DNA of 64,000 nucleotides from a bacterium (GTDB lineage: Bacteria; Orphanbacterota; Orphanbacteria; Orphanbacterales; Orphanbacteraceae): positions 99,512 to 163,511 of the forward strand of contig JALGYY010000009.1 of NCBI GenBank assembly GCA_025782575.1, given 5' to 3'. The stretch's first letter is position 1. Each line of letters opens with the position of its first letter. Of the stretch, positions 6,463 through 60,659 are shown one piece after another. Position numbers and translations under genes: made by a program. The notes under the pieces were generated by a model. It made no database searches and was not told the DNA's origin. It was given only the letters and a program-made list of their open reading frames with translations.

Positions 6463-7446
6463 GTGGAAGCCATTGCGAGACAAGAAAATATAGGGGCCGT
6501 TCGTCAGACCGCCCTTCCTTCGCTCTATCTGGAACTGACGAAAATGAGGTTGTCGGCGCTCGTCGTGATCACCACCATCGTCGGATTCCTGATGGGGGGA
6601 CTTGGGGCCGTCGACTGGGCCCGTCTCCTCTGGACCTCGATCGGAGTGGCGCTCACCGCGGGCGGCGCGAACACGTTTAATCAGTGGATGGAAGTCGACC
6701 GCGACCGGCTGATGAAACGGACCCGGATCCGGCCGATTCCCTCGAAGGCGCTGACCCGGAGACATGCATTTCTGTTCGGCCTGGTGATCTCGATCGCCGG
6801 CCCCGCCATCCTGCTTGCCCGAGTCAATCTGCTTGCCGCGCTTCTCGCCATCCTGACCTGGCTCATCTATGTGGGGATCTACACACCGCTAAAGCCGGTT
6901 AACTCTCTCTGCACGCTTTTCGGCGCCGTTGTCGGAGCGATCCCGCCTGTCATCGGCTGGGTGGCAGCCTCGGGGAGCATCGGATTCGGTGCGCTGATTC
7001 TCGCGGCCGTGCTTTTTGTCTGGCAGATTCCGCACTTTCTCGCTCTCGCGTGGATCTACCGCGATGAGTACGCTCGCGGCGGTTTTCGTGTACTCCCGGT
7101 AATAGACCCGACCGGGCACTCGACGTTTCGGATGGCCATGCTTTACAGTCTCTGTCTTATACCGGTCGGATTCTCCGGTCTGATTGTCGGCATGTCCGGA
7201 TGGCTGTACGGTATCGGAGCACTCCTTCTCGGCGGGGTCATGTTGCTGCTCAGTATCGATCTCTACAGACGAAAAGGGGCATTGCAGGCGCGCCGCCTCT
7301 TCTATGCGAGCCTGATCTATCTCCCCGCGCTTCTCGGACTGATGGTGATCGACAAGGGCCCGGCACTCGAACTCGGGCCGCAGTACGGTAACGTCGCTAC
7401 CCGTCATCTCTCCTCCCCCCCCGAGGGACCGGCCTCTTCGCGATGA
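6463..7446 (+). CDS. ctaB: Protoheme IX farnesyltransferase (heme O synthase, UbiA family)
   Basis: UbiA-family polyprenyltransferase topology and motifs (NQWMEVDRDRLMKRTRIRPIPS; YRDEYARGGFRVLPV). GTG start at 6463 preceded by CAGGAG. Transcribed divergently from ctaA. Confidence 0.85.
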   Translation: MEAIARQENIGAVRQTALPSLYLELTKMRLSALVVITTIVGFLMGGLGAVDWARLLWTSIGVALTAGGANTFNQWMEVDRDRLMKRTRIRPIPSKALTRRHAFLFGLVISIAGPAILLARVNLLAALLAILTWLIYVGIYTPLKPVNSLCTLFGAVVGAIPPVIGWVAASGSIGFGALILAAVLFVWQIPHFLALAWIYRDEYARGGFRVLPVIDPTGHSTFRMAMLYSLCLIPVGFSGLIVGMSGWLYGIGALLLGGVMLLLSIDLYRRKGALQARRLFYASLIYLPALLGLMVIDKGPALELGPQYGNVATRHLSSPPEGPASSR

Positions 7447-8510
7447 CCAGAGATACGTCGGACCCCGCCCGCCCGAAACTCTACTTCGGCCGATTCGGCT
7501 GGCTTCTGACAGCGGCGTTCGTTCTTGTGATGGGGGGCGTCTTCCTTCAACTCGCTCCGCAGATCAGCAAGTCGAGAGCAACCCCTCCACCCCCTTTCGA
7601 TCTTACCGGCGCGCTCATTCCCGTTGACCAGATCGTAAACGCCGGCTTTTCGCGGGACGGAATCCGCGCTCTCGATCATCCCCTTCTTCTCACCGCCTCG
7701 CAGATCGATTCTCTTGCACAGATAAGAAGGAAGAAGTACCTGGTATCAGGGGAACGGGTAATCGGCGTAGCTGTTGGTAATGCCGCCCGCGCCTATCCGA
7801 TCAGCGTTCTCAACTGGCACGAAGTGGTAAACGATACATTGGGCGGGGTGCCGATTGCCGTATGCTTTCATCCCCTTTGTGATGCGGTTACCGTTTTCGA
7901 TCGCAGATTCGGGGGAGAGGCACTGACATTCGGCCTGAGCGGGCTTCTTTATAACTCTCACCATCTCCTCTATGACCGGAGGCCGGGCGAGAACGGCGAA
8001 AGTCTCTGGAGTCCGGTACAGCGCCGGGCGGTGGCCGGGCCTGCCGCGAAGAGGGGAGAGTCGATCGACCTTCGGGGGCCGCTTCTCTGCAGCTGGGGGG
8101 AATGGCGGACCAGATACCCTGAAACGACGGTGATCCGGCGTGACCCGATAAGAATGAAACTATACAAACGGAAGCCCTATAACAGTTACTACGGCTCCGA
8201 ACTCTTGAAGTTCCCGGTACGGCCACTCCCTCCGCCCGACAGGCTGCCACTGAAGAGCAGGGTGATCGTCCTCTTCCCCGAAGGCGAGCCTGCCCCGTTC
8301 AGCGTGCCAGCAATCGTGCGAAAAATGGGGGACGCCGGCTTCTGGGAGACGACAGTAGATGGCCGTCCGATCCGTTTTGAAAGCGCCGGATGCGATGATT
8401 GTATCGCAGCGCGATTTACCGATTCCGATCGCCCGGTCCCCGCTCTCTATTCATTCTGGTTTGCCTGGTATTCCCTGAACCCGGACGACGACCTTATCTC
8501 GATCGACTGA
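7443..8510 (+). CDS. DUF3179-like protein with N-terminal membrane anchor
   Basis: Start ATG overlaps the ctaB stop (ATGA). Conserved region NDTLGGVPIAVCFHPLCDAVTVFDRRFGGEALTFGLSGLLYNSHHLLYDRR...SLWSPVQ resembles DUF3179. Family assignment made from memory. Confidence 0.5.
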   Translation: MTRDTSDPARPKLYFGRFGWLLTAAFVLVMGGVFLQLAPQISKSRATPPPPFDLTGALIPVDQIVNAGFSRDGIRALDHPLLLTASQIDSLAQIRRKKYLVSGERVIGVAVGNAARAYPISVLNWHEVVNDTLGGVPIAVCFHPLCDAVTVFDRRFGGEALTFGLSGLLYNSHHLLYDRRPGENGESLWSPVQRRAVAGPAAKRGESIDLRGPLLCSWGEWRTRYPETTVIRRDPIRMKLYKRKPYNSYYGSELLKFPVRPLPPPDRLPLKSRVIVLFPEGEPAPFSVPAIVRKMGDAGFWETTVDGRPIRFESAGCDDCIAARFTDSDRPVPALYSFWFAWYSLNPDDDLISID

Positions 8511-8649
8511 CGGGGGGAGCCCGGCATAGCGGTCCAGCCTTCAGCCCCCAAGTGTTCCAGTGCCTTCCTACGCATCGGTCGACCTTCCTCTCAAGGAGCT
8601 ACTGCGGGACTCCGAACGGCGTCTCTCGCTGGCTCGTTCGGCCGGCCCA

Positions 8650-8722
8650 TTTAGTTCCGGGGACACAATACGTAACTCCCCCCTCTCGATTTGAGTGAGT
8701 TACGTATTGTGTCCCCGGAACC
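8650..8722. repeat. Palindromic repeat element, copy A (25-bp stem, 18-nt loop)
   Basis: AGTTCCGGGGACACAATACGTAACTC (8653-8678) pairs with its reverse complement at 8697-8722 (25/26 matches). The core matches the element at 47204-47289 at about 27 of 30 positions. Confidence 0.7.
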
Positions 8723-9004
8723 TTGCCTCATTATTTGTTCCTGCGCCATCTGGATTTATTCTCTGATAGATCAAATTAGCTATTGACACGTTTTTGAGTC
8801 ATAAATCGCTTAGAGCACATGCGCCTTGCGAGAATGACTGAAAAACGCTCTCCCGAGATCGTTAAATGAAAACATTTCATTTCTGATCTTTCGATCATAC
8901 CTCGAGCATAGTTCGTGCGTCAGAGAGGCTCTCTCGAACCCCCAAAAGCAGGGTGTATACTCTGTTCATGACCCCATGATCATCACGTTTAGCGATAAGG
9001 GGGC

Positions 9005-10210
9005 ATGCCCATGAACGAGCCGGAATTCTCCTGTCTGACCAACCAACAACTGATCAATTCAATCGAGAACTCAGCACGCGTGGAACGATCGATCTCAATT
9101 GAGATACTCGATCAGCTCGCCGAGATGGACCGTAGAAAAATTCATTTGGAACTCGGCTTCCGATCACTTCACAGCTACTGCGTCTCAAGGCTCCTCTACT
9201 CTGAATCGGCAGCAGGCAGGCGAATCTGCGCGGCACGGGCAATGGCGAAGTGTCCGGAGATTCGCGAGATGATTTCCAATGGCCGTCTGAACCTCAGCAC
9301 GGTATGTGTTCTTTCAAGCGTCTTGAATCAGGCGAACAGGTTCGATCTGCTGAAGCTATCATCAGGCAAGTCGTGGCGGGAAGTAGAGGCGATTGTCGGG
9401 CGACTGAAGCCTCGAAAGAAACTGCGTGAGCGGATCACTCCGGTGACGATCAAAGAACGTCCGGCGGAACAACCGAACCAGACAGAACCGGCTCGTCTTT
9501 TGATCCTGGATGATCATTCCGATCCGACCGAAGAGCGTACCAATTCGAACGGGTGCAAGAAAATTCACCTCCGCCGCGGAGGTAAAAAACCGACCACCTC
9601 GGCCCCACAAGAAAGCCCGGCCGAAGCTCGGCACGATCGATTCGAACTGCGATTCTCTGCGAATCAGGATGTGATGATGATGCTTGAGAAGGCAAGGAAG
9701 ATTGCGCCGGGAAGTTCGACTCTCGAATCCGTCTTCGGCAGAATGGTCCGCGAGTACCTCGAACGACACGATCCGGCGAAGAAACAGAAAAGAAGAGAGA
9801 AACGAAAAGAACTGGAAGCGAGGAAGGCGGAGAGCAAGAGGGCATCGACCGCGGTGTGCGAGCCGGTCAAGGCGGGTGTGGGGGAGAGCGGACCGCTGTT
9901 CGACGATCCGGGCCGTGTCGAAGAGCGTCGATCACGCCACATTCCGTCATATCTGCGTGATGAAATCGCTCTCCGTGACGGCTACCAATGCACTTTCATC
10001 GGACTTGACGGCACACGATGCGATGCCACCCGCCATCTTCAGATCGATCACATCACCCCGTTCGCCTTTGGCGGTGCCCACGAATCAGCTAACCTGCGTC
10101 TCCTCTGCGGACCCCACAACCAGCTGGAAGCAGAGAGGATGGGGCTCAGTCCATCGGATCGAACGGTCGAACAGTCGCTGCAGGTCATGAATGGTCCCCC
10201 TGGGTCATGA
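9005..10210 (+). CDS. HNH endonuclease with DUF222-like N-terminal domain
   Basis: C-terminal HNH nuclease motif (CTFIGLDGTRC...HLQIDHITPFAFGGAHESANLRLLCGPHN). The N-terminal region resembles the DUF222 domain commonly fused to HNH. GC content visibly lower than flanking genes. Confidence 0.8.
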   Translation: MPMNEPEFSCLTNQQLINSIENSARVERSISIEILDQLAEMDRRKIHLELGFRSLHSYCVSRLLYSESAAGRRICAARAMAKCPEIREMISNGRLNLSTVCVLSSVLNQANRFDLLKLSSGKSWREVEAIVGRLKPRKKLRERITPVTIKERPAEQPNQTEPARLLILDDHSDPTEERTNSNGCKKIHLRRGGKKPTTSAPQESPAEARHDRFELRFSANQDVMMMLEKARKIAPGSSTLESVFGRMVREYLERHDPAKKQKRREKRKELEARKAESKRASTAVCEPVKAGVGESGPLFDDPGRVEERRSRHIPSYLRDEIALRDGYQCTFIGLDGTRCDATRHLQIDHITPFAFGGAHESANLRLLCGPHNQLEAERMGLSPSDRTVEQSLQVMNGPPGS

Positions 10211-12354: not shown

Positions 12355-12392
12355 ATCTCTTGCCGACCTGTGCGATCGATATAATCTCAGTG
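12355..12392 (+). promoter_or_regulatory. Possible sigma70-type promoter for the repeat lipoprotein gene
   Basis: Perfect TATAAT at 12380-12385. The upstream TTGCCG sits at suboptimal 14-nt spacing. AAGGAG RBS lies 8 nt before the ATG at 12432. Confidence 0.3.
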
Positions 12393-12431
12393 ATTGGATG
12401 TACCATTGACCAGACCCGAAAGGAGTGCTTG

Positions 12432-14276
12432 ATGTACCGACCCGGATGGCTAGGCAAGACCCCGTTTCCAATGGTTCTCGTTCTCGCGTCCCTCTTCGTC
12501 GTGGGATGTGGGGACGACGATCCGACCGGACCGGGGGACGGGGGGGGCGATGGGAATGGCGAAATCGCCACCCGTGATCTTTCGTTCACCATGGGTGGGA
12601 TGGATCCCCATGTGGGGCAACTCCTCGAGATTCGTATCGTAGGCACGGAAGATGGAAAAGTGACCCACGGAAACGAGATGGAAGCCCGCTTCATTCTCGA
12701 CCCCCTTCCTTCGGCCGAATATGTGATCGAGGTTCCCGACGGAGTTTCGGAAGGTCGTCACAATCTAGATTTCACGGCTGACCTGAATGGAAACGGAAGC
12801 TACGATCCGCCCCCGGCCGATCACGCCTGGCGGATCTCTCTCGCCGAGAGCGGGGACCTGACTCCGGAGTTCGCCCATAACGTCGACTTCGTGGACATCG
12901 AAAGTCCGTTACCCGGACAGGCGGGTGATTTCATCATGAATCTGACCGGCATGGATCCGCATGTGGGTCAGCTCTTTGAACTCCGCGTGATGAACACCGG
13001 AACAGGACAGACAGTCGGCCAGTATCGGCTCGGCGCGATCCCCCAGGCCGGCTTCTCTATCATGATCCCGGGGATCATCGAGGACGGGGAAAGTTACCAG
13101 GTCGATTACTACGCCGATCTGAACGGCAGTGGAGGCTACAGTGCGCCGCCGAGCGACCATGCCTGGCGTGATGAGTCCACGGGAGATGCCGGAGGGCTCA
13201 CCATCGACTTTGCTCACAACGTAGACTTCACCGATATCGGTTTTGCAAGCAGTGGCGGCGAGATCGCCCCTGAACCGCTGGTGCTCAGGGATCTCTCGTT
13301 TACACTCATGGGGATGGACCCACATGTGGGGCAGCACCTCGATATCCGGATCGTGGGAGCAGAGGACGGACTCCGAAGCCGCATCATCCTCTATCCACTC
13401 CCCTCGGCCGGGTTTGTCGTAAACGTGCCGAATGGTGTTGCCGAAGGCGCTCACAATCTCGACTTCACGGCTGATCTGAATGGAAACGGAACCTACGATC
13501 CGCCCCCGGTTGATCATGCCTGGCGGATTGCTCTCGCCGAAAACGGCGACCTGACTCCGGAGTTCGCCCATAACGTCAACTTCGTCGATATCGAGAATCC
13601 ACTGCCCATGCAGGCGGGTGACTTCACCATGAATCTGACCGGCATGGATCCTCATGTCGGCCAGCTCTTCGAGCTTCGTGTGATGAACACCGGTACCGGC
13701 CAGACTGTCGGACAGTATCGGCACGAAGCGATCGTGCAGGCGAACTTTTCCTTTGTGATTCCGGGAATCATTGAGAACGGGGAAAACTATCGCGTCGACT
13801 ACTACGCCGATCTGAATGGCAGCGGAGGCTACGATGCGCCGCCGAGCGATCATGCCTGGCGGGAAGACCTTACGGGAGGGTCGGACGGACTCACCATCGA
13901 TTTCGCCCATAACGTGAATTTCACCGATATCGATTTTGTGAGTAGCGGTGGGGTAATCGAAGAAGATCCGGGGGTTACATTCACTCAGATCCAGAATGAG
14001 ATCCTGACGCCGAGCTGTGTGAACGCGTTCTGCCATCCCGGTGGAGGGGCGCCGATGTCCCTCGCTCCAGGTGCTGCCTGGGGGAACCTCGTCGACGTGG
14101 CCTCCGGCTGGGGAATGGATCGTGTGGAGCCGGGCGATGCCGACAACAGTGCCCTCTATCTCAAGGTGATCGGGACGAGCATCGGATCGAGGATGCCCCT
14201 CGGTCGACCGGCTATCTCATCGGACCAGGCGGAGATGATCCGGGCCTGGATCGAAGCGGGAGCTCTCGACAACTGA
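12432..14276 (+). CDS. Lipoprotein with four about 115-aa repeat modules (two about 230-aa tandem units) and a C-terminal Planctomycete-type cytochrome-c-like (PSCyt1-like) domain
   Basis: Lipobox LFVVGC after MYRPGWLGKTPFPMVLVLAS. Repeated MDPHVGQ...DFTADLNGNGSYDPPP.DHAWR modules. C-terminal SCVNAFCHPGG...SALYLKV...MPLGRPAISSDQAEMIRAWIEAGA matches the PSCyt1 domain outline but carries CX4CH rather than CxxCH. Confidence 0.7.
   Translation: MYRPGWLGKTPFPMVLVLASLFVVGCGDDDPTGPGDGGGDGNGEIATRDLSFTMGGMDPHVGQLLEIRIVGTEDGKVTHGNEMEARFILDPLPSAEYVIEVPDGVSEGRHNLDFTADLNGNGSYDPPPADHAWRISLAESGDLTPEFAHNVDFVDIESPLPGQAGDFIMNLTGMDPHVGQLFELRVMNTGTGQTVGQYRLGAIPQAGFSIMIPGIIEDGESYQVDYYADLNGSGGYSAPPSDHAWRDESTGDAGGLTIDFAHNVDFTDIGFASSGGEIAPEPLVLRDLSFTLMGMDPHVGQHLDIRIVGAEDGLRSRIILYPLPSAGFVVNVPNGVAEGAHNLDFTADLNGNGTYDPPPVDHAWRIALAENGDLTPEFAHNVNFVDIENPLPMQAGDFTMNLTGMDPHVGQLFELRVMNTGTGQTVGQYRHEAIVQANFSFVIPGIIENGENYRVDYYADLNGSGGYDAPPSDHAWREDLTGGSDGLTIDFAHNVNFTDIDFVSSGGVIEEDPGVTFTQIQNEILTPSCVNAFCHPGGGAPMSLAPGAAWGNLVDVASGWGMDRVEPGDADNSALYLKVIGTSIGSRMPLGRPAISSDQAEMIRAWIEAGALDN
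12560..13965. repeat. Intragenic tandem duplication (two units of about 700 bp, about 85-90% nt identity)
   Basis: For example 12770-13030 versus 13470-13730 are near-identical at the DNA level (gacttcacggctga[c/t]ctgaatggaaacggaa...). Boundaries are approximate. Confidence 0.75.
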
Positions 14277-14302: not shown

Positions 14303-14339
14303 CAGGAAGCCCGGGGAAATGACTTCTCCGGGCTTCCTG
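14303..14339 (-). terminator. Hairpin terminator between convergent genes
   Basis: Perfect 12-bp inverted repeat CAGGAAGCCCGG / CCGGGCTTCCTG with a 13-nt loop. On the minus strand it is followed by a T-rich tract (CTTTGTTCCCTT). Probably terminates the 14374..15306 gene; no U-tract on the plus side. Confidence 0.5.
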
Positions 14340-46692: not shown

Positions 46693-47199
46693 ATGATAGG
46701 TGCTATGAGCGGCGAATCTCCGGATGATCTCCACGAAATCCTGACTGAGCTTGGCACGCGTCTCCGCGCGACCAGGATGCGACTGGTGCTGGCCGAGTCC
46801 TGCACCGGCGGCGGCATCGCCCATGCAGTCACCTGCATGGCGGGATGCTCCGACTGGTTCGATCGGGCGTATGTTACCTATTCCGACAAAGCGAAATCTG
46901 ACATGTTGGGGGTCGAGAGCAAGACGATTGTCAGGTTCGGCGCGGTGAGCGAGGAGACGGTGATCGAGATGGCAAGGAAAGCGCTCGACCGGAGCGGGAC
47001 AGATCTGGCGATCGCTGTCAGCGGGATCGCCGGGCCGGGAGGGGGGGCGCCGGATAAGCCGGTCGGTACCGTCTGTTTCGCATGGGCAGGAAGAGAAGGT
47101 GAAAGTCGTGCGGAGACTGTGCACTTCGATGGGAACCGGGCTGAAGTTCGGGCCGCTTCCGTGAAGCACGCCCTTCGCGGATTGCTGGCCATGCTCTAG
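46693..47199 (+). CDS. CinA C-terminal domain protein (PncC-type nicotinamide-nucleotide amidohydrolase)
   Basis: LVLAESCTGGGIAHAVT...AIAVSGIAGPGGG, typical of the CinA_C/PncC domain. 168 aa. Confidence 0.75.
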   Translation: MIGAMSGESPDDLHEILTELGTRLRATRMRLVLAESCTGGGIAHAVTCMAGCSDWFDRAYVTYSDKAKSDMLGVESKTIVRFGAVSEETVIEMARKALDRSGTDLAIAVSGIAGPGGGAPDKPVGTVCFAWAGREGESRAETVHFDGNRAEVRAASVKHALRGLLAML

Positions 47200-47203
47200 C
47201 CAC

Positions 47204-47289
47204 CCCCTTTAGTTCTGGGGACACAATACTTAATTCCCCCCAACCATTTTGGCGGGAATTAAGTATTGTGTCCCCAGAACTAAAGGGGG
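47204..47289. repeat. Palindromic repeat element, copy B (perfect 36-bp stem, 14-nt loop)
   Basis: CCCCCTTTAGTTCTGGGGACACAATACTTAATTCCC (47204-47239) is the exact reverse complement of 47254-47289. Lies between convergent genes. Same family as 8650-8722. Confidence 0.8.
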
Positions 47290-47342
47290 ACCTCCCGCCG
47301 GAGATCCCCCTGTCAGCATTCATCAAAATTCGAAGGTTCTCT

Positions 47343-48746
47343 TTACGAGTCCTTTATCGCCGCCACAAGATCGAGCATGTTCTTCTTCGCATCGCCGAAG
47401 AACATGAGAGTATTGTCCGCGGCAAAGAGCGGGTTCGGGATGCCTGCAAAACCCGGGCTCAGGCTTCGCTTGACGATCACGACTGTCCGCGCCTTGTCAG
47501 CATCGAGAATCGGCATGCCGGCGATCGGACTGTTGGGGTCATCCCGCGCCACGGGATTGACGACATCATTGGCGCCGAGCACGATAGCCACGTCGCACTG
47601 CTGGAATGCCGGGTTGACAACGTCCATCTCCACAAGTTCGTCATAGGGGATGTCCGCTTCGGCGAGAAGTACATTCATGTGACCGGGCATCCGACCTGCG
47701 ACCGGATGGATCGCGTACTTTACATCAGTACCGTTCGCCTTGAGCAGGTTCGATAGATCCCGCACCGTATGCTGTGCCTGGGCGACGGCGAGGCCGTAAC
47801 CGGGGACGATGATCACGGAGCTTGCGCCGTCGAGCATCATCGCGACCTCCTCGGCCGACGTCGTCTTGATCCGACCTTCGTAGATCTCGTCCGCTCCCGG
47901 CATGGACGACTGGGCGCTGTCTCCCCACGTACCGAAGAGGACGTTGGCGAGTGATCGGTTCATCGCCTTGCACATGATCATCGTGAGTATGATTCCGGAT
48001 GCACCGACGAGCGAACCGGCGATGATGAGCACCGTGTTATTGAGAACGAAGCCGGTCGCTGCCGCTGCGATTCCGGAGTATGAGTTCAGCAGCGCGACGA
48101 CTACCGGCATGTCCGCTCCGCCGATCGGAATCACCGCGAGAACGCCGAGGATGGCGGCGGCCGCCATCAGGATCCAGTAGTTCTGGATGTTGCCGGGATC
48201 CATGACGATCATGACGATGAGTGCCAGACAGGCAAGCGCGAACAGGATCTTCACGATTTGAGCGCCCGGATAAGTAACGACGCCGGTGGAAACCAGGCCG
48301 CGTAGCTTGCCGAATGCGATCATCGATCCGGTGAATGTCACCATACCGATCAGGCCCGATGTGCCGGCGGCGATCGTGAACTGCGCGACGGGGATAGCTC
48401 CGATCGATCCCCCGCCGGCAAACTTGACGAGCTCCGCGCCGGCGACGAGTGATGAAGCGATCCCGCCGAAGCCATTGAACATGGCGACAAGCTCAGGCAT
48501 GGCGGTCATCTCGATCTTGGCGGCGAGAATGGCACCAACCAACGCCCCGACAGCAAGTCCGGCGATGATCCATTCAAAGGTGAGAACGTGCTGGTCGAAC
48601 AGCGTCACCACGAGTGCGATCAGCATACCTGTAGCGCCGAGGCGATTGCCCCGCACTGCCGTTTTCGGGTGAGTCAGTCCCTTCAGACCCATGATGAAGA
48701 GGACCGAAGCGACCAGATAAGCAAGAGGAATCAGTATCTCGTTCAC
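47343..48746 (-). CDS. pntB: NAD(P) transhydrogenase subunit beta
   Basis: N-terminal TM domain plus C-terminal NADP(H)-binding domain III (GYGLAVAQAQH...). 467 aa. Confidence 0.9.
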   Translation of the reverse strand: MNEILIPLAYLVASVLFIMGLKGLTHPKTAVRGNRLGATGMLIALVVTLFDQHVLTFEWIIAGLAVGALVGAILAAKIEMTAMPELVAMFNGFGGIASSLVAGAELVKFAGGGSIGAIPVAQFTIAAGTSGLIGMVTFTGSMIAFGKLRGLVSTGVVTYPGAQIVKILFALACLALIVMIVMDPGNIQNYWILMAAAAILGVLAVIPIGGADMPVVVALLNSYSGIAAAATGFVLNNTVLIIAGSLVGASGIILTMIMCKAMNRSLANVLFGTWGDSAQSSMPGADEIYEGRIKTTSAEEVAMMLDGASSVIIVPGYGLAVAQAQHTVRDLSNLLKANGTDVKYAIHPVAGRMPGHMNVLLAEADIPYDELVEMDVVNPAFQQCDVAIVLGANDVVNPVARDDPNSPIAGMPILDADKARTVVIVKRSLSPGFAGIPNPLFAADNTLMFFGDAKKNMLDLVAAIKDS

Positions 48747-53988: not shown

Positions 53989-56900
53989 TCACCGAATGAG
54001 CATCATCTTCTTCGTTGCGGCGAATCCGCTCGCCTGCATGCGCACGAAGTAAAGTCCTGATGCGACACTCCGCCCCTGGCTGTCGTGCCCCTGCCAGTTC
54101 ACATCCAGGTATCCGGCATCTCGTTCGTCATCGATGAGAGTTTTGACAAGGCGGCCGGCCAGATCGTAGATCGAAATATTGATATGTGACCGTTCGGGTA
54201 GACCGAATCGGATCGATGTGGTCGGGTTGAACGGGTTCGGCACGTTGCCGTAAAGCAGGAACGCAGCGGGAACCGCCTCTGCTTCATCCACTCCGGTCGG
54301 GTCGCCCGACTCCAGGAACTGATAGAAAGCATCAGCCACAAAGCCGGTCAGTTCCTGCACAGTTCCGCTCGGCCACGAAATCCGGATCGAATCAACCACT
54401 GTCGCCGATCCGAGCCCGAATTCGGCTGTAAGCGAGTTCTGCGACCCATAGCCTGAGCCGCCGGTGATTTCACGGATCTGGGCGAGGCCGCCTGCAACGA
54501 TACGAACCCGGGCGCCGATAGCCGAACGGTTGGACGGCGATCCCACCAGATTGACGTGAACCCAGTGATTGCCTGTTACGGCCTCGTTACGGAAGAGCCT
54601 TTTCGTAGCCGCGCTCGTCGCGATGTAGAGATCGAGATCGCCGTCGCTGTCGATGTCCGCCCAGGCCGCGCCGAGTCCGTTTCCTGCGTTAACGAGCGAG
54701 TCATCGGTCGCATCAGAAAAGAGACCGCCTCCTTCATTTCGGAAGAGTTTGTTCGATCCCGACTGATTGAGATAGAGATCGAGGTCCCCGTCATTGTCGT
54801 AGTCGGCCCAGGCGATTCCCCGGCCGCCCCCAATATCGGCGAGTAGGAGGGGAGTCACGTCGGCGAACACTCCGCCGCCGTCATTCCGGAACAACTTATT
54901 GGCGGCGCTCTCGTTCGAAACGTAGAGATCGAGATCGCCATCGTTATCGTAGTCAGCCCAAGCGACGCCATATGCCGAGCCGGCGTCTCCGAGAGGACCA
55001 GCCGTTATGTCGGTGAACGTTCCGCCGCCTTGATTCTCCAGCAGTTGATTGGGGCTGAACGCGTTCCCCACGTAGAGATCGAGATCACCGTCGTTATCGT
55101 GGTCGCCCCACGCACCTGAGAAGGAGAAACCAAGGCTGCTGAGCGGCCCGCTCGTGATGTCTGTGAATCCGCCGGCGCCGTCATTGTCGAGCAGTTTGTT
55201 GAACGATCCCGCGTTCGTAATATAGAGATCGAGATCACCGTCGTTGTCATGGTCCCCCCAGGCGCCCGAAAAACCGAAGCCGGCGTCGTTAAGGACCGCA
55301 GAGACTATATCAGCGAATACTCCTCCCCCGTCATTCCGGAAGAGTTTGTTCGCGGTCCCCGAGTTGACGAGATAGAGATCGAGGTCGCCGTCATTGTCGT
55401 AGTCACCCCACGCGCTCTGTACGCCATCGCCGGCATCGTTGAGAGGCGGCGCCGATACATCCGCGAATGTCGCCCCGTCGTCATTCCGAAACAGCTTGTT
55501 GGCCCCGAACGAGAGGCTGACGTAGAGGTCCTCGTCGCCATCGCCGTCATAGTCGCCCCAGGAAACGCCCTGAACGGTTCCCGCGTGAATGAGTCCGCTG
55601 GCGGTCACATCCGCCCAGTCAGGCACAGGCTCCGTGATCGTGAGCGCCGTATCGACAGTGATCGCGGTCAGGAGCGACAGTTGCCCCGAAGGCCAGAAGA
55701 CCTGGAGCGTGTCGATCAGAGTCGACGCCCCGAGCCCGAAGTCGGCCGGGAGGGAGTTCTGGGAGAGGTAACCGGAACCGCCGGAAATGTCTCGAATCTG
55801 TGCGATCCCGCCGGCCACGGCTCTCACACGCGCGCCGATTCCTGCTTTGTTCGAGATGACTCCGGCCGTCTTCACGCGAAGCCAGTGATTCCCCGAAGTC
55901 TGGTCGTTTCGGAAGAGTTTGTTGGCACCGAGATTGGCGACGAATAGATCGAGATCACCGTCACCGTCGCTGTCGCCCCAGATCACGCTCTGGCTGTTAC
56001 CGGCGTCACTCGTTTCGAAGTTTGCCGCGTCAACAAAAATCCCGCCGTCATTGCGGAAAAGGCGGTTAAAGTATTTGCCGGCCACGTAGAGATCGAGGTC
56101 ACCATCCAGATCGTAATCGCCCCATGCCGCTCCGTAGCTTTCACCATCCACGTCGACCGGCGACGCTGATACTTCGGTGAATGATCCTCCGCTGTTCCGG
56201 AAGAGCTGGTTCGGCCCGATGTTGGTGACGTAGGCGTCGAGGTCGCCGTCATTGTCGTAATCACCCCATGCGACGCCTCTCCCCGTGCCGTTGTCCGAAG
56301 CACCAAGCCCGCCTCCGAGTTCCGTGAAGGTGCCGTTCGAATTGTTGCGGAATATCTTGTTGCTCCCCTCGTTCACCAGATAAATGTCCTGGTCACCGTC
56401 GTTGTCGTAGTCGACCCATACGGTCGCCCAACTGGGGCCACTGTTGGCGACCGTGCCCGGTGTGATATCGATCAGCGTTCCCGAGTCGTTTCTGAGGAGA
56501 CGATTCGACTCGTTGTAATTCGTGATGTAGAGGTCGACATCGCCGTCGTTGTCGTAGTCGCCGAATGCGGCCGCGCGGCCGGCGCCCGGATGACCCGCAC
56601 CGCCGGAGGTCCCGTCGATAAATGTGCCTCCCCCTTGATTTTCAAAGAGTTTATTGGCTCCGTCATTGGCGAGGTAGAGGTCGAGATCGCCGTCGTTGTC
56701 TACATCGGCCCACGCCGTCCCGTAACTGATCGAAGCGTCGTCCAGGGGGGCGGCCGTAACATCGGAATAGCCGGCCGGACTGTTTTGGAGCAGCTGATTC
56801 GCTCCATCGCTGTTCGTGATATAGAGATCGGCATCGCCGTCTCCGTCGAAATCGGCCCAGGCGGCTCCCCGTGCCATACCCGTATGACCGACCGCCGCAC

Positions 56901-59900
56901 TTGTGGCGTCGTGAATCAATGTGGACGGCGCGAACGGGGGAGCGATATCGAAGAACGCATCACTCTGATCGATCACAGCGCCTGCGGAATTGAAAAGCGT
57001 CACACGCACGAGTGCTTCCCGGCTTGGAAGGTTGGGGACGACCCAGGCCAGGCTTCCTCCACCGCCGCCGGCGAGGCTGTCGGCGAGCAATGTCCACGTC
57101 ATTCCGCTGTCACCGCTCGACTCCACCGTATGGGCGACAGCCGAGCCTCCGCCGTTGGTCCATGTGATATTCACATTGCTGCCGATCTCGAGTGATTCGC
57201 CTCCGTTCGGCGATGTCACCGCCGTGATCGGGGCGGCTGTGATCGCGAAAGTCGCATCGCTCGTATCCCGGTCACTTCCCGCTGCGTTGGAGAGGAGGAC
57301 GCGAACCCGGCCCTGGGTGGTCTCATCGTTCGGTACCGTCCAGTCAAATCCGCCCAGCTGCCCGCTTGATCCGGAGGCGACCGGATTCCACGAAGAGCCG
57401 TTGTCGGTGGAATACTCGAGTGTGTAGTCAGAACCCACAGCGGATGTGCTCGTCCAGGTGATTTCTCTTACCGTTCCGACTCCCCAGTCTTCACCGCCGT
57501 CAGGAGAGAGGATGAGGGCGACCGGCGCAATGAACGACTCCGTAATCGTTACGAGTGTGTCCGCCGCGAGCGCGGTTACGATCTGATCGATTCCTGATGG
57601 CCAGCTCACGATCAGCGTGTCCACGGTCGTCGTCTGGCCGATCCCGATCTCCGCTCGAAGCGAGCCCTGGCTTCGGCCGTTGCCAGCCGTTATCTCACGG
57701 ATAAAGGATTTGCCCCCGGCCACGGCTCGAATGCGGGCGCCCACACCATGGGAGTTCGACACCGTTCCCGCCAGATCGACCTGGATATAGTGATCGCACT
57801 CCGCAGAGAGAGGGGTTGTCCGAAGCAGCACATTGCCACTCCCGTCATTGCCGAGATAGAGATCCATGAGGCCGTCACCGTCATAATCGGCCCAGGCCGC
57901 CGCGGCATGGTCGTTTCCGGCGTCCGTCTGGAGAGTGTCGGTCAGTTCGTGAAATTTCGCTTTGTAGTTGAAGAAAAACAGATTATCGTCAGGCGAGGCA
58001 TTCCCCACGAAGAGGTCGATGTGGCCGTCGTTGTTATAGTCCGCCCATGAAACGGTAACCGCGTCGGATGCATCTCCGAGCAATCCGCCCGTTACATCCG
58101 CGAACGTCCCCCCGCCGTCATTCCGGAAGAGTTTGTTCGCGCCGTTGTTCCCTACATAAAGATCGAGGTCGCCGTCGTTGTCGATATCCGCCCAGGCGGC
58201 CGACCGGCTCACTACGGACGCTTCCCCGATCGAAGCGGGGGTAACGTCGGTGAACGATCCGGCACCGTTGTTTTCGAAGAGCTTATTTCCCGCCGCGACA
58301 GAACGGGCGAGGTAGAGATCCATGTCGCCGTCGTCGTCGAAATCACCCCAGGCGATGCCGGCGCCGTCAGTTGTGGTGGCGAACGCACCGCTCGCGACAT
58401 CGGTGAACGATCCGGTCCCGTCATTCTCGAACAGGCTGCTTCCCGAAGAGGTCACGATATGGAGATCGAGATCGCCGTCATTGTCCTTGTCGAGCCATTC
58501 CACGGCCACGCCGTCACCGGCGTTGCCGATCCCGGCCGGTGTGATGTCGGCGAACACGCCGCCGCCGTCGTTCCGGAGAAGAAGATTGGCCGAGCCTGTA
58601 TTTGTGATTACGAGATCGAGATCACCATCGTCGTCGAAATCTCCCCAGGCGGCTCCTGATCCGGCACCCGCGTTCCCGAGATCACCGGAAGTCACATCGA
58701 CGAACGTTCCGGCCTGATTCTCGAGGAGTGCGTTGGCGCCGTTATTCAGCAGGAAGAGATCGGCATCGCCGTCGCCGTCGTAGTCGCCCCAGGCGACACC
58801 CGTCGCGCTGCCCGCATCAGCAAGCGGACCGCTGGTCGAATCGGCGATCCCGGTAATACCGAATGCGTTTCGAATATTCAGGAAACCATAGCCGTATTTC
58901 GGATCGAACCCCGCAACGCCGCGGTCACGGGCGGAGCATTGGAGTCGCGCTTCCACTTCGGCGGCAGAGAGAGTCGGGTCGAGCGAGAAAAGTAGAGCCG
59001 CCACGCCGGCGGAGTAGGGCGAAGAAAAGCTCGTTCCACTCACGGACGCATAGTCTCCCGGTGCGACGCCGGCGGATCCGACACGGTCCGTCGTATAGAC
59101 GGAGACACCAGGTGCGGCAAAGGCGAGGCTGTCACCCCAGCTGCTGAACGAAGCCAGATTTCCGTCCCGGCCGACGGCCGAAATCGAGTTCACCTTGCTA
59201 TGGGAAGAGGGGTATCCGAGAACGGCGACAGCATTGTTTCCCGCGCTTGCGAAACTGACGATGCCGTTCGCATAGGCATTGTCGTATGCATCGTCGATCG
59301 TGCTGTTCGGGCTTCCGAGCGACCAGCTCAGATTTGTCACTTTTGCGCCCTGCTGCCGGGCCCAGTTGAGTGCGTTGGCCACCCAGATTGACTGGCATTG
59401 CCCGGTTCCGTCACAAGGGACCGTGGATACACAGATCCGACCTCCGGCGACTCGGCAGCCCGGGGCGATTCCGACCGTACCGAGGGAGTTGTTGATCGTC
59501 GCCGACACGCAGCCCGCTACGGTCGTTCCATGTGTGTCACACATGTTGAAAGGGTTGCCGCCTCCTCCTTCACCCGTAAAGTCCTCTCCGGCGATCTGAT
59601 GGAGGTCGGGATGAACCTGATCGACGCCGTCGTCGAATACGGCGACGATGATAGTGGAGTCTCCCGTGGTGAGATCCCACGCCCGGACACCACCCATATC
59701 CATGCCCGGCGTACCGCCGGACTGACCTGTGTTATGGATGCCCCACACCAGATTGAATCCAGTGTCGTTCGGAATGAGCGATCTCCTCGATTCCATCTGG
59801 AAGTCCGGTTCGGCCCAGGAAATACGGGAGTCCGCGGCGAGCCGGTTCGCAAGTGCGAGTACATCGAAACCGTTCTGTGAGGCAATGCTGGAACGAAGCC

Positions 59901-60432
59901 GATAAGCTCCGTCCAGTCCGGCAAAATCGGTTTCCAGAATCTGGATGGTGGGTTCGAGTTCGAACAGGATCTCTTCGGCGCGATATCGAGAAGCGGGATC
60001 GAACCTTACGAGAATTTCGGGGGTCACGGCGAGCCATCCGAAGAAGTGGCCGCGAAAGACCGGAGAGACGAACTCGAACTGGTCCGATGCGACGAGGATA
60101 TTGATCATCCGGTCTGCATCACTTGCATCTACAGCTTCTGATTCCAGAAAGAGAAACTGGGAACTGGGCATAGGAGCGCTCTTCATTGACATGGCGGGGA
60201 TACCCGCAATATTCAGACTACCGAGCAGGCGCTTCCGGCCGACTTCTTCCGTAATCGCTTCTTTCGGCGTCACGGCGAATCGGGAGCCGTCTAGCTCGAG
60301 CTGCAGTGCTTCCCCTTTGTAGTAATAGAATGTTGGCGGTGATTCCGCGTGAACCAGGGCCGGTCCGGACGGGAGTGCTGAAAGAGTAATAGAGAATGCG
60401 AGCGTGCAGACAATCGAGCGCAATCGGATCAT
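53989..60432 (-). CDS. Giant secreted multidomain protein: subtilisin-like S8 peptidase + about 25-30 FG-GAP/VCBS beta-propeller repeats + three UnbV/ASPIC domains + T9SS C-terminal sorting domain
   Basis: Start MIRLRSIVCTLAFSITLSALPSGPALVHA (signal peptide) preceded by CAGGAGG. S8 catalytic triad motifs (DDGVDQVHPDL; HGTTVAGC; GTSFSSPY). Repeats of the form WGDYDNDGDLDLY..N.G.NKLFRN. UnbV_ASPIC blocks such as HWLRVKTAGVISNKAGIGARVRAVAGG..IRDISGGSGY. C-terminal Por_Secre_tail-like 90 aa (NVPNPFNPTTSIRFGL...IYDLAGRLVKTL...GLYFVRMQASGF...KMMLIR). Confidence 0.85.
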   Translation of the reverse strand: MIRLRSIVCTLAFSITLSALPSGPALVHAESPPTFYYYKGEALQLELDGSRFAVTPKEAITEEVGRKRLLGSLNIAGIPAMSMKSAPMPSSQFLFLESEAVDASDADRMINILVASDQFEFVSPVFRGHFFGWLAVTPEILVRFDPASRYRAEEILFELEPTIQILETDFAGLDGAYRLRSSIASQNGFDVLALANRLAADSRISWAEPDFQMESRRSLIPNDTGFNLVWGIHNTGQSGGTPGMDMGGVRAWDLTTGDSTIIVAVFDDGVDQVHPDLHQIAGEDFTGEGGGGNPFNMCDTHGTTVAGCVSATINNSLGTVGIAPGCRVAGGRICVSTVPCDGTGQCQSIWVANALNWARQQGAKVTNLSWSLGSPNSTIDDAYDNAYANGIVSFASAGNNAVAVLGYPSSHSKVNSISAVGRDGNLASFSSWGDSLAFAAPGVSVYTTDRVGSAGVAPGDYASVSGTSFSSPYSAGVAALLFSLDPTLSAAEVEARLQCSARDRGVAGFDPKYGYGFLNIRNAFGITGIADSTSGPLADAGSATGVAWGDYDGDGDADLFLLNNGANALLENQAGTFVDVTSGDLGNAGAGSGAAWGDFDDDGDLDLVITNTGSANLLLRNDGGGVFADITPAGIGNAGDGVAVEWLDKDNDGDLDLHIVTSSGSSLFENDGTGSFTDVASGAFATTTDGAGIAWGDFDDDGDMDLYLARSVAAGNKLFENNGAGSFTDVTPASIGEASVVSRSAAWADIDNDGDLDLYVGNNGANKLFRNDGGGTFADVTGGLLGDASDAVTVSWADYNNDGHIDLFVGNASPDDNLFFFNYKAKFHELTDTLQTDAGNDHAAAAWADYDGDGLMDLYLGNDGSGNVLLRTTPLSAECDHYIQVDLAGTVSNSHGVGARIRAVAGGKSFIREITAGNGRSQGSLRAEIGIGQTTTVDTLIVSWPSGIDQIVTALAADTLVTITESFIAPVALILSPDGGEDWGVGTVREITWTSTSAVGSDYTLEYSTDNGSSWNPVASGSSGQLGGFDWTVPNDETTQGRVRVLLSNAAGSDRDTSDATFAITAAPITAVTSPNGGESLEIGSNVNITWTNGGGSAVAHTVESSGDSGMTWTLLADSLAGGGGGSLAWVVPNLPSREALVRVTLFNSAGAVIDQSDAFFDIAPPFAPSTLIHDATSAAVGHTGMARGAAWADFDGDGDADLYITNSDGANQLLQNSPAGYSDVTAAPLDDASISYGTAWADVDNDGDLDLYLANDGANKLFENQGGGTFIDGTSGGAGHPGAGRAAAFGDYDNDGDVDLYITNYNESNRLLRNDSGTLIDITPGTVANSGPSWATVWVDYDNDGDQDIYLVNEGSNKIFRNNSNGTFTELGGGLGASDNGTGRGVAWGDYDNDGDLDAYVTNIGPNQLFRNSGGSFTEVSASPVDVDGESYGAAWGDYDLDGDLDLYVAGKYFNRLFRNDGGIFVDAANFETSDAGNSQSVIWGDSDGDGDLDLFVANLGANKLFRNDQTSGNHWLRVKTAGVISNKAGIGARVRAVAGGIAQIRDISGGSGYLSQNSLPADFGLGASTLIDTLQVFWPSGQLSLLTAITVDTALTITEPVPDWADVTASGLIHAGTVQGVSWGDYDGDGDEDLYVSLSFGANKLFRNDDGATFADVSAPPLNDAGDGVQSAWGDYDNDGDLDLYLVNSGTANKLFRNDGGGVFADIVSAVLNDAGFGFSGAWGDHDNDGDLDLYITNAGSFNKLLDNDGAGGFTDITSGPLSSLGFSFSGAWGDHDNDGDLDLYVGNAFSPNQLLENQGGGTFTDITAGPLGDAGSAYGVAWADYDNDGDLDLYVSNESAANKLFRNDGGGVFADVTPLLLADIGGGRGIAWADYDNDGDLDLYLNQSGSNKLFRNEGGGLFSDATDDSLVNAGNGLGAAWADIDSDGDLDLYIATSAATKRLFRNEAVTGNHWVHVNLVGSPSNRSAIGARVRIVAGGLAQIREITGGSGYGSQNSLTAEFGLGSATVVDSIRISWPSGTVQELTGFVADAFYQFLESGDPTGVDEAEAVPAAFLLYGNVPNPFNPTTSIRFGLPERSHINISIYDLAGRLVKTLIDDERDAGYLDVNWQGHDSQGRSVASGLYFVRMQASGFAATKKMMLIR

Positions 60433-60659
60433 CGAGAGCCTCCTGATAGAAATACGACACAGCCGGAGCTGATCCGGCCTATCCGGTTCAAACTTGTTGA
60501 GAGGGGAACAAGGGAGATCCAAGTCGTTAACTTGATGAGAATTATAACATTCCAACCCGGCCGGAATCAAGTCGGATCGTCAGAGGGGTACTCGCGGTGG
60601 CCAGAATAGCGAGCTTGGAACAAAATTCGACATTTTCCACTATCTGACGAGGGGATCCG

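What the first reader, a model, noticed from the sequence alone, without database searches (positions are those of the whole stretch)
47204..47289. Family of long perfect palindromic repeat elements (MITE/REP-like), two copies in this window
At 47204-47289 a 36-bp arm is followed 14 nt later by its exact reverse complement. That is far longer than needed for an intrinsic terminator. A second copy at 8650-8722 (25-bp arms) shares the core AGTTC[C/T]GGGGACACAATAC[G/T]TAA[C/T]TCCCCCC at about 27 of 30 positions. Both copies sit in intergenic DNA, one between convergent genes and one at the edge of a low-GC HNH islet. This behaviour suggests a dispersed, possibly mobile, repetitive extragenic palindrome family specific to this lineage. 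Such elements can act as transcription terminators, mRNA stabilisers, recombination hotspots or non-autonomous transposable elements.
Basis: seen in the sequence. Interest (0 to 1): 0.5.

Follow-up and report, generated by a model that had tools for sequence, protein, structure and literature searches.

The report
Gene-less tyrosine-transposase inverted-repeat pairs
The two long palindromes are gene-less pairs of the 25-base end repeats that, in many other bacteria, flank a small single-strand-DNA tyrosine transposase gene (the TIRYT/"TIRtron" class named in 2013), so they belong to a known, little-studied and very widespread mobile-repeat family, not to a lineage-specific novelty.

Summary
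Window 47203-47289 is a 41-nt-arm palindrome with one mismatch and a 5-nt loop. Window 8654-8721 is a perfect 25-nt-arm palindrome with an 18-nt loop. Both share the core AGTTCYGGGGACACAATACKTAAYT.

The core is a discrete 25-nt unit, consensus AATTCCGGGGACACAATACTTAATT. It is not lineage-specific: it occurred in at least 119 genome stretches spanning well over a dozen phyla.

- **Link to a transposase:** in about 20 of those loci the unit abuts a Y1/HUH transposase gene or a remnant of one. Complete genes are bracketed by two inward-facing copies.
- **Which transposase:** the proteins carry the NHVH, WQ and Y[IV]ELNP motifs of TnpAY1 subclass 2.1, also called TIRYT or RAYT Group 1. The repeat fits the published TIRYT end consensus GGGGWSAS.
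- **How the window copies fit:** inward-facing pairs are spaced either 3-60 nt apart (53 pairs, including both window copies) or 707-924 nt apart (5 full elements). Some intermediates still hold transposase gene fragments.

The window copies are therefore gene-less "TIR dimers". No transposase gene lies in the window. The copy number in the source genome could not be measured. Mobilisation in trans on single-stranded DNA is inferred, not shown. Verdict: a new member of a known kind, of modest interest.

The parts
47203..47289 (.). TIR dimer A. The whole palindrome has arms 47203-47243 and 47249-47289 and loop 47244-47248. It starts 4 nt after the cinA stop codon and ends 54 nt from the pntB stop codon.
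   Evidence: The outward palindrome extension of 14 nt beyond the GGGG core is the longest among 51 short dimers compared.
47211..47235 (+). Left 25-nt TIR unit of dimer A: AGTTCTGGGGACACAATACTTAATT.
   Evidence: It matches the family consensus AATTCCGGGGACACAATACTTAATT, whose boundaries are sharp at -6/-8 and +18 relative to the GGGG start. It contains GGGGACAC, which fits GGGGWSAS (PMC3733652).
47257..47281 (-). Right 25-nt TIR unit of dimer A. It is identical to the left unit (0 differences in 25).
8653..8722 (.). TIR dimer B. The perfect arms are 8654-8678 and 8697-8721, with an 18-nt loop. It lies 143 nt after the stop codon of the DUF3179 gene and 283 nt before the start of the DUF222/HNH gene.
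8653..8677 (+). Left 25-nt TIR unit of dimer B: AGTTCCGGGGACACAATACGTAACT.
8698..8722 (-). Right 25-nt TIR unit of dimer B: GGTTCCGGGGACACAATACGTAACT. It differs from the left unit at one position, the outermost.
47284..47311 (-). Context, not part of the family unit. This is a terminator-like hairpin downstream of pntB. Its 3' stem arm (CCCCC) and T-rich tail (TTTAGTT) overlap the outer end of dimer A.
8628..8646 (+). Context. This is a terminator-like hairpin downstream of the DUF3179 gene. It is followed by CCATTTAGTT, which runs straight into dimer B.

Best explanation
Each palindrome is a "TIR dimer": two inward-facing copies of a 25-nt terminal inverted repeat (TIR) with only a short loop between them. 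In other bacteria the same repeat brackets a single gene of about 220-240 aa. That gene encodes a Y1 (HUH) tyrosine transposase of TnpAY1 subclass 2.1, also known as TIRYT or RAYT Group 1, and the whole unit is called a TIRtron.

The window copies are therefore gene-less, non-autonomous derivatives of that element class, with MITE- or REPIN-like anatomy.

**Most likely mechanism (inferred from the biology of Y1/HUH enzymes).**
- On single-stranded DNA, for example the lagging-strand template, the two arms snap into a long hairpin.
- That hairpin, or the TIR strand itself, is the substrate that a TIRYT encoded elsewhere in the genome cuts and rejoins.
- This would allow excision and insertion without target-site duplication.

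**Origin (partly shown).** The dimers arose either by internal deletion of full TIRtrons or by inverted duplication of a single TIR.

**Effect on the host.** Any effect is secondary. When transcribed, the elements form very stable 25-41-bp RNA hairpins at the 3' ends of cinA, pntB and the DUF3179 gene.

**Open point.** Whether the two copies are still mobile in this genome is unknown.
For: **Shown: the repeat is a discrete, widespread unit.**
- Outside the 16 bases fixed by the search pattern, 164 instances share AATT(C/A)(C/T) upstream and TT downstream. Conservation falls to background beyond -8 and +18.
- Almost every genome hit shares these extra bases, against 1 of 7 hits in viral contigs. 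The genome hits are therefore not chance matches.

**Shown: the repeat is linked to a Y1 transposase.**
- About 20 of 119 loci carry a Y1_Tnp gene or remnant next to the unit. The Pfam Y1_Tnp E-value is 3.5e-13. The NCBIfam model REP_Tyr_transpos scores 63 bits, below its cut-off of 80.
- Complete genes are bracketed by inward-facing copies: L009 659+/1391-, L020 1960+/2714-, L068 125+/898-, L104 3774+/4647-, L108 3672+/4621-.
- The proteins carry NHVH, WQ and Y[IV]ELNP. These are the subclass 2.1 signatures in Table 1 of PMC6006769, which equates that subclass with TIRYT. The published TIRYT TIR consensus is GGGGWSAS (PMC3733652), and GGGGACAC fits it.

**Shown: an independent check not selected on the repeat.**
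- Six TIRYT homologues were chosen by protein similarity alone (69-78% identity).
- Four are bracketed on both sides by closely related TIRs, such as GGGGACACCTTACTTAATT and GGGGACGTGATACTTAATT. A fifth has only a divergent left-hand copy, and one has none within 5 mismatches.
- Wherever a left copy was found, its core ends 36 nt before the ATG.

**Shown: the spacing forms a series.**
- 68 of 111 adjacent pairs face inward.
- Gaps are 3-60 nt (53 pairs, including both window copies at 20 and 21 nt), 86-203 nt (9 pairs) and 707-924 nt (5 full elements).
- Intermediates L027, L091 and L072 still encode TIRYT fragments.

**Shown: other properties.**
- There are no target-site duplications beyond chance, as expected for Y1 enzymes.
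- Copies are mostly extragenic.
- The single unit has no structure of its own; only the dimer folds.
Against: - No TIRYT gene lies in the 64-kb window (tblastn, best E = 0.025). The rest of the genome could not be searched, so an enzyme acting in trans is assumed.
- Only two copies are documented in this genome.
- No TIRYT has been tested biochemically. The only two distinct works in the searched library that mention TIRYT are computational. The ssDNA hairpin mechanism is extrapolated from IS608/ISDra2 TnpA and from E. coli TnpA-REP.
- Dimer A is palindromic for 8 nt beyond the family boundary (CCCCCTTT/AAAGGGGG). The right-hand part doubles as a pntB terminator stem. A simple insertion of a deletion derivative does not predict this.
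- The two copies differ at three mirrored positions, so neither is a recent copy of the other.
- No Pfam helix-turn-helix (HTH) domain was detected in the C-terminal tail, although one is reported for subclass 2.1.
- The survey is biased by selection on the repeat.
Confidence: 0.75

Rival explanations
1. The elements are inactive relics. They are TIR dimers by descent, but this genome has no cognate TIRYT, so the two copies are immobile fossils that persist by chance or because they are harmless.
For: - No TIRYT gene lies in the window.
- Only two copies occur in 64 kb, and they differ at 3 mirrored positions, so neither is a recent copy of the other.
Against: - Both copies are perfectly or almost perfectly symmetric: 0 and 1 differences in 25 nt, with arms up to 41 nt. 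The mean across 52 dimers elsewhere is 2.96.
- Neutral decay of old relics would have eroded that symmetry.
- The rest of the genome was not examined.
Confidence: 0.3
2. The elements are primarily host RNA structures. They act as bidirectional terminators or as 3' hairpins that stabilise mRNA for cinA/pntB and the DUF3179 gene, and are kept for that function.
For: - Both sit just downstream of coding regions. Dimer A starts 4 nt after the cinA stop codon and lies between convergent genes.
- The RNA hairpins are very stable (-74 and -52 kcal/mol).
- REPs are known to do this (general knowledge; abstract of PMC3733652).
Against: - No U-tract follows either hairpin on either strand. The terminator scan flagged only smaller neighbouring hairpins, so each gene seems to have its own terminator already.
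- A terminator need not keep a 25-nt sequence conserved across phyla.
- Perfect 25-41-bp duplex RNA is a typical RNase III substrate rather than a protective cap (general knowledge).
Confidence: 0.1
3. The elements are canonical REP/REPIN sequences mobilised by a RAYT of the REP-associated groups (Bertels groups 2 and 3; TnpAY1 subclasses 2.2 and 2.5).
For: - They are inverted doublets that form a hairpin, they are extragenic, and they are linked to a RAYT-like Y1 protein.
- The NCBIfam model REP_Tyr_transpos is the best hit for the associated protein.
Against: - There is no GT[AG]G head.
- The single unit is not self-complementary (0 kcal/mol, z = +0.6).
- The NCBIfam score of 63 bits is below the cut-off of 80.
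- The protein motifs NHVH and YIELNP belong to subclass 2.1, not 2.2 (DHLH/YIHYNP) or 2.5 (Table 1 of PMC6006769).
Confidence: 0.03
4. The elements are MITEs derived from a DDE-transposase insertion sequence whose ends happen to resemble these repeats.
For: They have terminal inverted repeats around a short core. L129 and L137 carry a 159-nt element with the same TIRs and an unrelated 121-nt core, present twice.
Against: - There are no target-site duplications beyond chance in 51 dimers.
- Every full-length relative found encodes a Y1/HUH protein, never a DDE enzyme.
Confidence: 0.03

Closest known systems
[quoted passage not shown] Equated with TnpAY1 subclass 2.1 by Quentin et al. 2018 (PMC6006769), which maps it to RAYT Group 1 of Bertels et al. 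2017 (PMC5581495).
   Same: - The TIR contains GGGGWSAS (here GGGGACAC).
- The TIRs bracket a Y1/HUH gene of about 220-240 aa with NHVH, WQ and Y[IV]ELNP motifs.
- The TIRs also occur without the gene as singles, dimers and groups in intergenic DNA.
- The taxonomic spread is wide and patchy.
   Different: - The papers describe an 8-nt shared motif and a few dozen genomes. Here one sub-family shares a 25-nt unit across more than a dozen phyla, although its transposases are only 42-67% identical.
- A size series runs from full element to gene-less dimer, and some intermediates still hold transposase gene fragments.
- No Pfam HTH domain was detected in the C-terminal tail.
- No cognate gene is seen in the window.
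REPINs/REPs and their RAYTs (Nunvar et al. 2010, PMC2817692; Bertels and Rainey 2011, PMC3337134)
   Same: - Both are inverted doublets that form a hairpin.
- Both are extragenic.
- Both are presumed to be mobilised in trans by a domesticated or semi-domesticated Y1 transposase whose gene is bracketed by the same repeats.
   Different: - There is no GT[AG]G tetranucleotide.
- Each unit is unstructured alone.
- The repeat sequence is shared across phyla rather than being specific to a species or clade.
- The copy number appears modest.
IS200/IS605 family (IS608, ISDra2), TnpAY1 subclass 1.1
   Same: Both use the HUH/Y1 catalytic core. Both lack target-site duplications. The ssDNA mechanism of this family is the model for the inference made here.
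   Different: - IS200/IS605 elements have subterminal hairpins and no TIRs.
- Their tyrosine motif is Y---Q, not Y---NP.
- They often carry tnpB.
"Double-foot" REPs of TnpAY1 subclass 2.4 (PMC6006769)
   Same: [quoted passage not shown] That is the origin proposed here.
   Different: They carry GT[AG]G/C[TC]AC feet, belong to a different transposase subclass, and are found mainly in Cyanobacteria and Bacteroidetes.

Membership tests
TIRtron / TIRYT terminal-repeat family | The repeat contains the GGGGWSAS motif. | tested here: met
   GGGGACAC is present in all four arms. The consensus is taken from PMC3733652.
TIRtron / TIRYT terminal-repeat family | The same repeat brackets a Y1/HUH transposase gene as inward-facing inverted repeats. 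| tested here: met
   Met in other genomes: L009, L020, L068, L104 and L108, plus remnants in L027 and L091. Four of 6 homologues picked by protein similarity alone are bracketed by closely related TIRs on both sides, and a fifth has one divergent copy. It was not seen in the window itself.
TIRtron / TIRYT terminal-repeat family | The bracketed protein has the subclass 2.1 signatures: HuH = NHVH, W[EQ], Y motif = Y[IV]ELNP, and a median length of about 238 aa. | tested here: met
   The alignment shows MPNHVHLI, YLWQGRF and RY[IV]ELNPVRAG, with lengths of 217-236 aa. Pfam Y1_Tnp gives E = 3.5e-13.
TIRtron / TIRYT terminal-repeat family | The protein has a C-terminal HTH-like domain (Bac_DnaA_C, HTH_23 or HTH_28). 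| tested here: inconclusive
   A conserved C-terminal tail of about 85 aa (motif RTGRPLG) exists. No Pfam HTH family hit it, even at E <= 1.
TIRtron / TIRYT terminal-repeat family | A cognate TIRYT gene is present in the same genome. | not testable with these tools
   None lies in the 64-kb window. The source is an NCBI contig of 299,905 nt that could not be fetched.
TIRtron / TIRYT terminal-repeat family | The repeats also occur without the gene, as singles, dimers or groups in intergenic DNA. | tested here: met
   253 copies were found in 131 sequences, including 53 short dimers. 31% of copies lie inside long open frames, against an 84% background.
Canonical REP / REPIN | A 5' GT[AG]G tetranucleotide lies at the foot of the hairpin. 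| tested here: not met
   There is no GTAG or GTGG at either end of the unit.
Canonical REP / REPIN | Each unit is itself an imperfect palindrome. | tested here: not met
   The 27-nt consensus unit folds at 0 kcal/mol, z = +0.63. The window arms fold at -3.0 and -2.7 kcal/mol, which is no better than shuffles.
Canonical REP / REPIN | High copy number (tens to hundreds per genome). | not testable with these tools
   Only two copies occur in 64 kb. The lower bound in other assemblies is 4-5 loci each, for example JACZUY01, DASPSJ01 and JAAYZR01. The scan was truncated.
MITE of a DDE-type insertion sequence | Target-site duplication flanks the TIRs. | tested here: not met
   Among 51 dimers, direct repeats of 0 nt (30 dimers), 1 nt (19), 2 nt (1) and 4 nt (1) were found. 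This matches the shuffled control. Neither window copy has one.
MITE of a DDE-type insertion sequence | The full-length parent encodes a DDE transposase. | tested here: not met
   All full-length relatives encode Y1_Tnp.
Intrinsic (Rho-independent) terminator | A G+C-rich hairpin is followed directly by a U-tract. | tested here: not met
   The bases following the hairpins are ACCTCCCGCC (+) and TGGCTAGAGC (-) for dimer A, and CTTGCCTCAT (+) and TAAATGGGCC (-) for dimer B. The scan flags only the neighbouring small hairpins.
IS200/IS605 | Subterminal hairpins without TIRs, and a Y---Q tyrosine motif. | tested here: not met
   TIRs are present and the tyrosine motif is Y---NP.

The most novel reading that the evidence does not exclude
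This TIR sub-family may be an unusually constrained recognition module. A 25-nt sequence stays almost unchanged in well over a dozen phyla, while its transposases drift to 42-67% identity.

The perfect dimers may not be simple deletion products. They could instead be made by a palindrome-generating process, either TIRYT-catalysed or template-switch inverted duplication at the replication fork, which copies one arm plus adjacent host sequence onto the other side.

That would explain two observations.
- Dimer A is palindromic 8 nt beyond the family boundary, into the pntB terminator.
- The two window copies differ only at mirrored positions.
Probability: 0.12. Interest if true: 0.6.

Novelty: new member of a known kind. 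Interest (0 to 1): 0.3.

Why it matters
TIRYT/TIRtron elements form one of the largest groups of Y1/HUH proteins. The protein search here reached its ceiling of 8000 scored candidates, all at E <= 1e-20. Yet only two distinct works in the searched library mention them, and neither reports an experiment.

This case supplies three things an experimenter would need:
- a sharply defined 25-nt substrate sequence;
- natural minimal derivatives of 70-87 bp;
- a size series linking full elements to gene-less dimers.

For annotating this genome, the practical message is that the two palindromes are repeat-element debris. They are neither regulatory inventions of the lineage nor terminators. Such perfect palindromes also break short-read assemblies: the Logan contig ends inside the left arm of dimer A.

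Tried and rejected
- **Rfam.** The whole window at gathering thresholds and 8400-9200 at E <= 1 gave no RNA family.
- **Literature.** The exact strings GGGGACACAATAC and GTATTGTGTCCCC are in no paper.
- **Phages as carriers.** Seven pattern hits were found in 2.9 million viral contigs. Only one (L127) has the family's flanking bases.
- **Plasmids as carriers.** There is no close TIRYT homologue: the best is 39% identity over the full length, or 46% over a partial match. Those homologues carry other GGGGWSAS-type TIRs. The consensus dimer gives one weak hit.
- **More copies from the window's own lineage.** A metagenome scan with TTTAGTTCNGGGGACACAATAC found 10 loci, none related to the window.
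- **Empty-site comparison.** The window's CinA has no relative above 63% identity among 5.8 billion protein clusters. Its only retrievable contig is a 9-kb Logan contig that ends inside the element. Presence or absence could therefore not be tested.
- **Target-site duplications.** None were found beyond chance.
- **Insertion next to hairpins as a general rule.** Both window copies abut a flank of about -20 kcal/mol. Across 50 dimers the flanks are no more structured than controls (means -12.56 and -12.46; Wilcoxon p = 1.0).
- **TTTA as a target tetranucleotide.** It is not general. Positions -9 to -7 show only a weak G preference.
- **attC sites, CRISPR repeats and operator sites.** These were considered and dropped, because the unit brackets a transposase gene and shows none of their spacing or motifs.
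- **The neighbouring HNH gene as IscB with a guide RNA.** Only the HNH segment matches the IscB model weakly (22.7 bits against a cut-off of 175).
- **Organism identity.** It could not be established.

Full report
**1. The observation**

The sequence at 47203-47289 is an inverted repeat with 41-nt arms. It has one mismatch (47239/47253) and a 5-nt loop.

The sequence at 8654-8721 has perfect 25-nt arms and an 18-nt loop.

Both fold far better than shuffles.
- As RNA: -74.2 and -52.0 kcal/mol, z = -14.6 and -11.5.
- As DNA: z = -16.0 and -10.7.

They are the only strong inverted repeats in the 64-kb window. The core 13-mer with up to 2 mismatches gives 5 hits in the window, against 0.9 expected.

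Both elements are intergenic.
- Dimer A lies between convergent cinA (46693-47199, +) and pntB (47343-48746, -).
- Dimer B lies between a DUF3179 gene (7443-8510, +) and a DUF222/HNH gene (9005-10210, +).

**2. What the shared core is**

A 16-base pattern is expected to occur a few hundred times by chance in about 600 Gb. That estimate is mine. The hits are nevertheless not chance. Across 164 instances the bases outside the pattern are conserved: AATT(C/A)(C/T) upstream and TT downstream. Information content falls to zero beyond -8 and +18.

The unit is therefore a discrete repeat of about 25 nt, consensus AATTCCGGGGACACAATACTTAATT.

As a control, 7 hits in 2.9 million viral contigs included only one with these flanking bases.

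The record titles span many groups: Planctomycetota, Omnitrophota, Alpha-, Beta- and Gammaproteobacteria, Desulfobacterota, Acidobacteriota, Elusimicrobiota, Hydrogenedentota, Bacillota, Actinomycetota, Bacteroidota/Ignavibacteria, Spirochaetota, Nitrospirota and several candidate phyla. Most of these are MAGs, so some mis-binning is possible.

The family is not lineage-specific.

**3. The associated gene**

Clustering all ORFs within 1.2 kb of the motif gave one dominant family, present in 16 loci. With tblastn it was found in 20 loci.
- It matches Pfam Y1_Tnp (E = 3.5e-13).
- It weakly matches the NCBIfam REP-associated tyrosine transposase model: 63 bits against a cut-off of 80.

Complete genes are bracketed by two inward-facing copies of the unit: L009, L020, L068, L104 and L108.

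The proteins carry MPNHVHLI, YLWQGRF and RY[IV]ELNPVRAG and are about 220-236 aa long. These are the signatures of TnpAY1 subclass 2.1 in Quentin et al. 2018 (PMC6006769).

That paper equates subclass 2.1 with the TIRYTs of Di Nocera et al. 2013. The flanking inverted repeats of TIRYTs share GGGGWSAS, and their TIRs also occur as single, dimeric or grouped repeats (PMC3733652). GGGGACAC fits that consensus.

Table 1 of PMC6006769 maps subclass 2.1 to Bertels's Group 1, which Bertels et al. 2017 describe as the largest, most widely distributed and most IS-like RAYT group (PMC5581495).

**4. A check not selected on the repeat**

My loci were chosen by the repeat itself. I therefore picked six TIRYT homologues by protein similarity alone (69-78% identity to the L060 protein) and fetched their flanks.
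- Four are bracketed on both sides by closely related inward-facing TIRs: GGGGACACCTTACTTAATT, GGGGACACCATACTTAA.. and GGGGACGTGATACTTAATT.
- A fifth has only a divergent left-hand copy (5 mismatches).
- One has none within 5 mismatches.
- Wherever a left copy was found, its core ends exactly 36 nt before the ATG.

The exact variant in the window is therefore one of several. Variation is concentrated at core positions 8-10.

More distant plasmid-borne homologues (29-46% identity) carry other GGGGWSAS-type TIRs, for example ATAAAGGGGACAGATTTATTTTCCC in Pseudomonas aeruginosa. TIR and protein thus co-diversify at long range. Within this sub-family the TIR is much better conserved than the protein, which is 42-67% identical.

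**5. How the window copies relate to full elements**

Allowing up to 3 mismatches in the 19-nt core gave 253 copies. Of 111 adjacent pairs within 1.5 kb, 68 face inward.

| Gap between inward-facing copies | Pairs | Note |
|---|---|---|
| 3-60 nt | 53 | includes both window copies (20 and 21 nt) |
| 86-203 nt | 9 | intermediates |
| 707-924 nt | 5 | full elements |

- Three intermediates still encode pieces of the transposase: L027 residues about 94-152, L091 residues 1-32, and L072 residues 4-24.
- Others carry unrelated cores, such as the 159-nt element present twice in L129 and L137.

This size series supports an origin of the gene-less dimers by internal deletion.

- Copies avoid long open frames: 31% against an 84% background.
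- No target-site duplication exceeds chance. That fits Y1/HUH transposition and argues against a DDE-type MITE.
- The single unit has no secondary structure; only the dimer folds. This separates the family from canonical REPs, which also carry a GT[AG]G head that is absent here.

**6. Features peculiar to the window copies**

(a) Each dimer is internally symmetric, with 0 and 1 differences in 25 nt. The two dimers differ from each other at three positions, and each difference is mirrored in both arms.
- Elsewhere the opposite pattern is common. In L019 the left arms match left arms and the right arms match right arms, which shows that the dimer is copied as a unit.
- The window copies are therefore not recent copies of one another.
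- Three explanations remain: they derive from different symmetric sources, their arms are homogenised, or perfect pairing is selected.

(b) Dimer A is palindromic for 14 nt outside the GGGG core. That is 8 nt beyond the family boundary and the longest extension among 51 dimers.
- Its right-hand GGGGG is also the stem of a terminator-like hairpin after pntB.
- Dimer B is likewise preceded by a terminator-like hairpin and by CCCATTTA, which matches the CCCCTTTA of dimer A at 7 of 8 positions.
- Adjacency to stable hairpins is not general: 50 dimers elsewhere show p = 1.0.
- This remains an unexplained local feature. It leaves room for an origin by inverted duplication.

(c) Neither hairpin is followed by a U-tract on either strand, so neither is a canonical intrinsic terminator.

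**7. Mechanism: what is shown and what is inferred**

Shown:
- sequence identity with the ends of TIRYT-encoding units;
- the orientation rule;
- the size series;
- the extragenic bias;
- the lack of target-site duplications.

Inferred from established knowledge of HUH/Y1 enzymes (IS608 and ISDra2 TnpA, E. coli TnpA-REP):
- the enzyme acts on single-stranded DNA;
- the dimer would present as a long hairpin on the lagging-strand template;
- a TIRYT supplied in trans would mobilise it.

No TIRYT gene is in the window. The rest of the genome was out of reach. No experimental work on TIRYTs was found.

**8. Verdict**

The finding is real. The family is pan-bacterial, and it was named in 2013.

I rate it a new member of a known kind, with modest interest. 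Its value lies in a clean definition of the 25-nt substrate and of the minimal natural derivatives of an unstudied transposase class.

Noticed in passing
window 8722-10210: A 401-aa DUF222/HNH protein (9005-10210, +) is preceded by a 283-nt AT-rich untranslated stretch (GC 0.44 against 0.58 for the window). That stretch contains a TTGACA...CATAAAT promoter-like site near 8781. Only the HNH segment weakly matches the IscB model (22.7 bits against a cut-off of 175), and Rfam finds no RNA there. It may be a separate small mobile or selfish gene islet.
   Followed up: partly
window 47284-47311 (-) and 8628-8646 (+): Terminator-like hairpins directly abut the outer end of each TIR dimer. At dimer A the terminator stem and the element's extended arm share the same GGGGG. 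This is not a general property of the family (p = 1.0 over 50 dimers elsewhere).
   Followed up: yes
L120/L142 (Logan contig SRR32233994_291474): The only other retrievable contig carrying the window's cinA ends inside the left arm of dimer A. This is probably an assembly break caused by the perfect palindrome or by repetition.
   Followed up: partly
L129 3314-3472 and 3971-4129; also L137: A 159-nt MITE-like element has the same TIRs and an unrelated 121-nt core. It is present twice, about 90% identical and 657 nt apart, in one metagenome contig.
   Followed up: no
protein hits P0121-P0240: Many TIRYT homologues sit on contigs of only about 770-1300 nt, roughly the size of the TIRtron itself. 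Assemblies seem to break at both ends, as they do for multicopy repeats. All are annotated simply as "transposase".
   Followed up: no
L009, L061, L001, L013, L038, L057, L111 (just inside the left TIR): A TTGACA -35-like hexamer follows the TIR within 3-10 nt. In TIRYT-bearing units the TIR core ends 36 nt before the ATG. The left end therefore seems to contain the transposase promoter, and solo left ends could act as outward-free promoters.
   Followed up: no
L016, L017, L022, L045, L095, L101 and others (upstream of the TIR): Partial tandem duplications of the outer half of the TIR occur, for example GAATTCCGGGGA-GGAATTCCGGGGACACAATAC. This suggests slippage or abortive end-processing at the outer boundary.
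   Followed up: no
window 53989-60570 (-): This ORF encodes a 2193-aa protein with a subtilase domain, 18 FG-GAP repeats, ASPIC/UnbV and a FlgD Ig-like domain. It is unrelated to the finding.
   Followed up: no
window 14303-14339: A 16-nt-arm hairpin (94% complementary, 5-nt loop) lies just after the ORF 12360-14276. It is probably an ordinary terminator.
   Followed up: no
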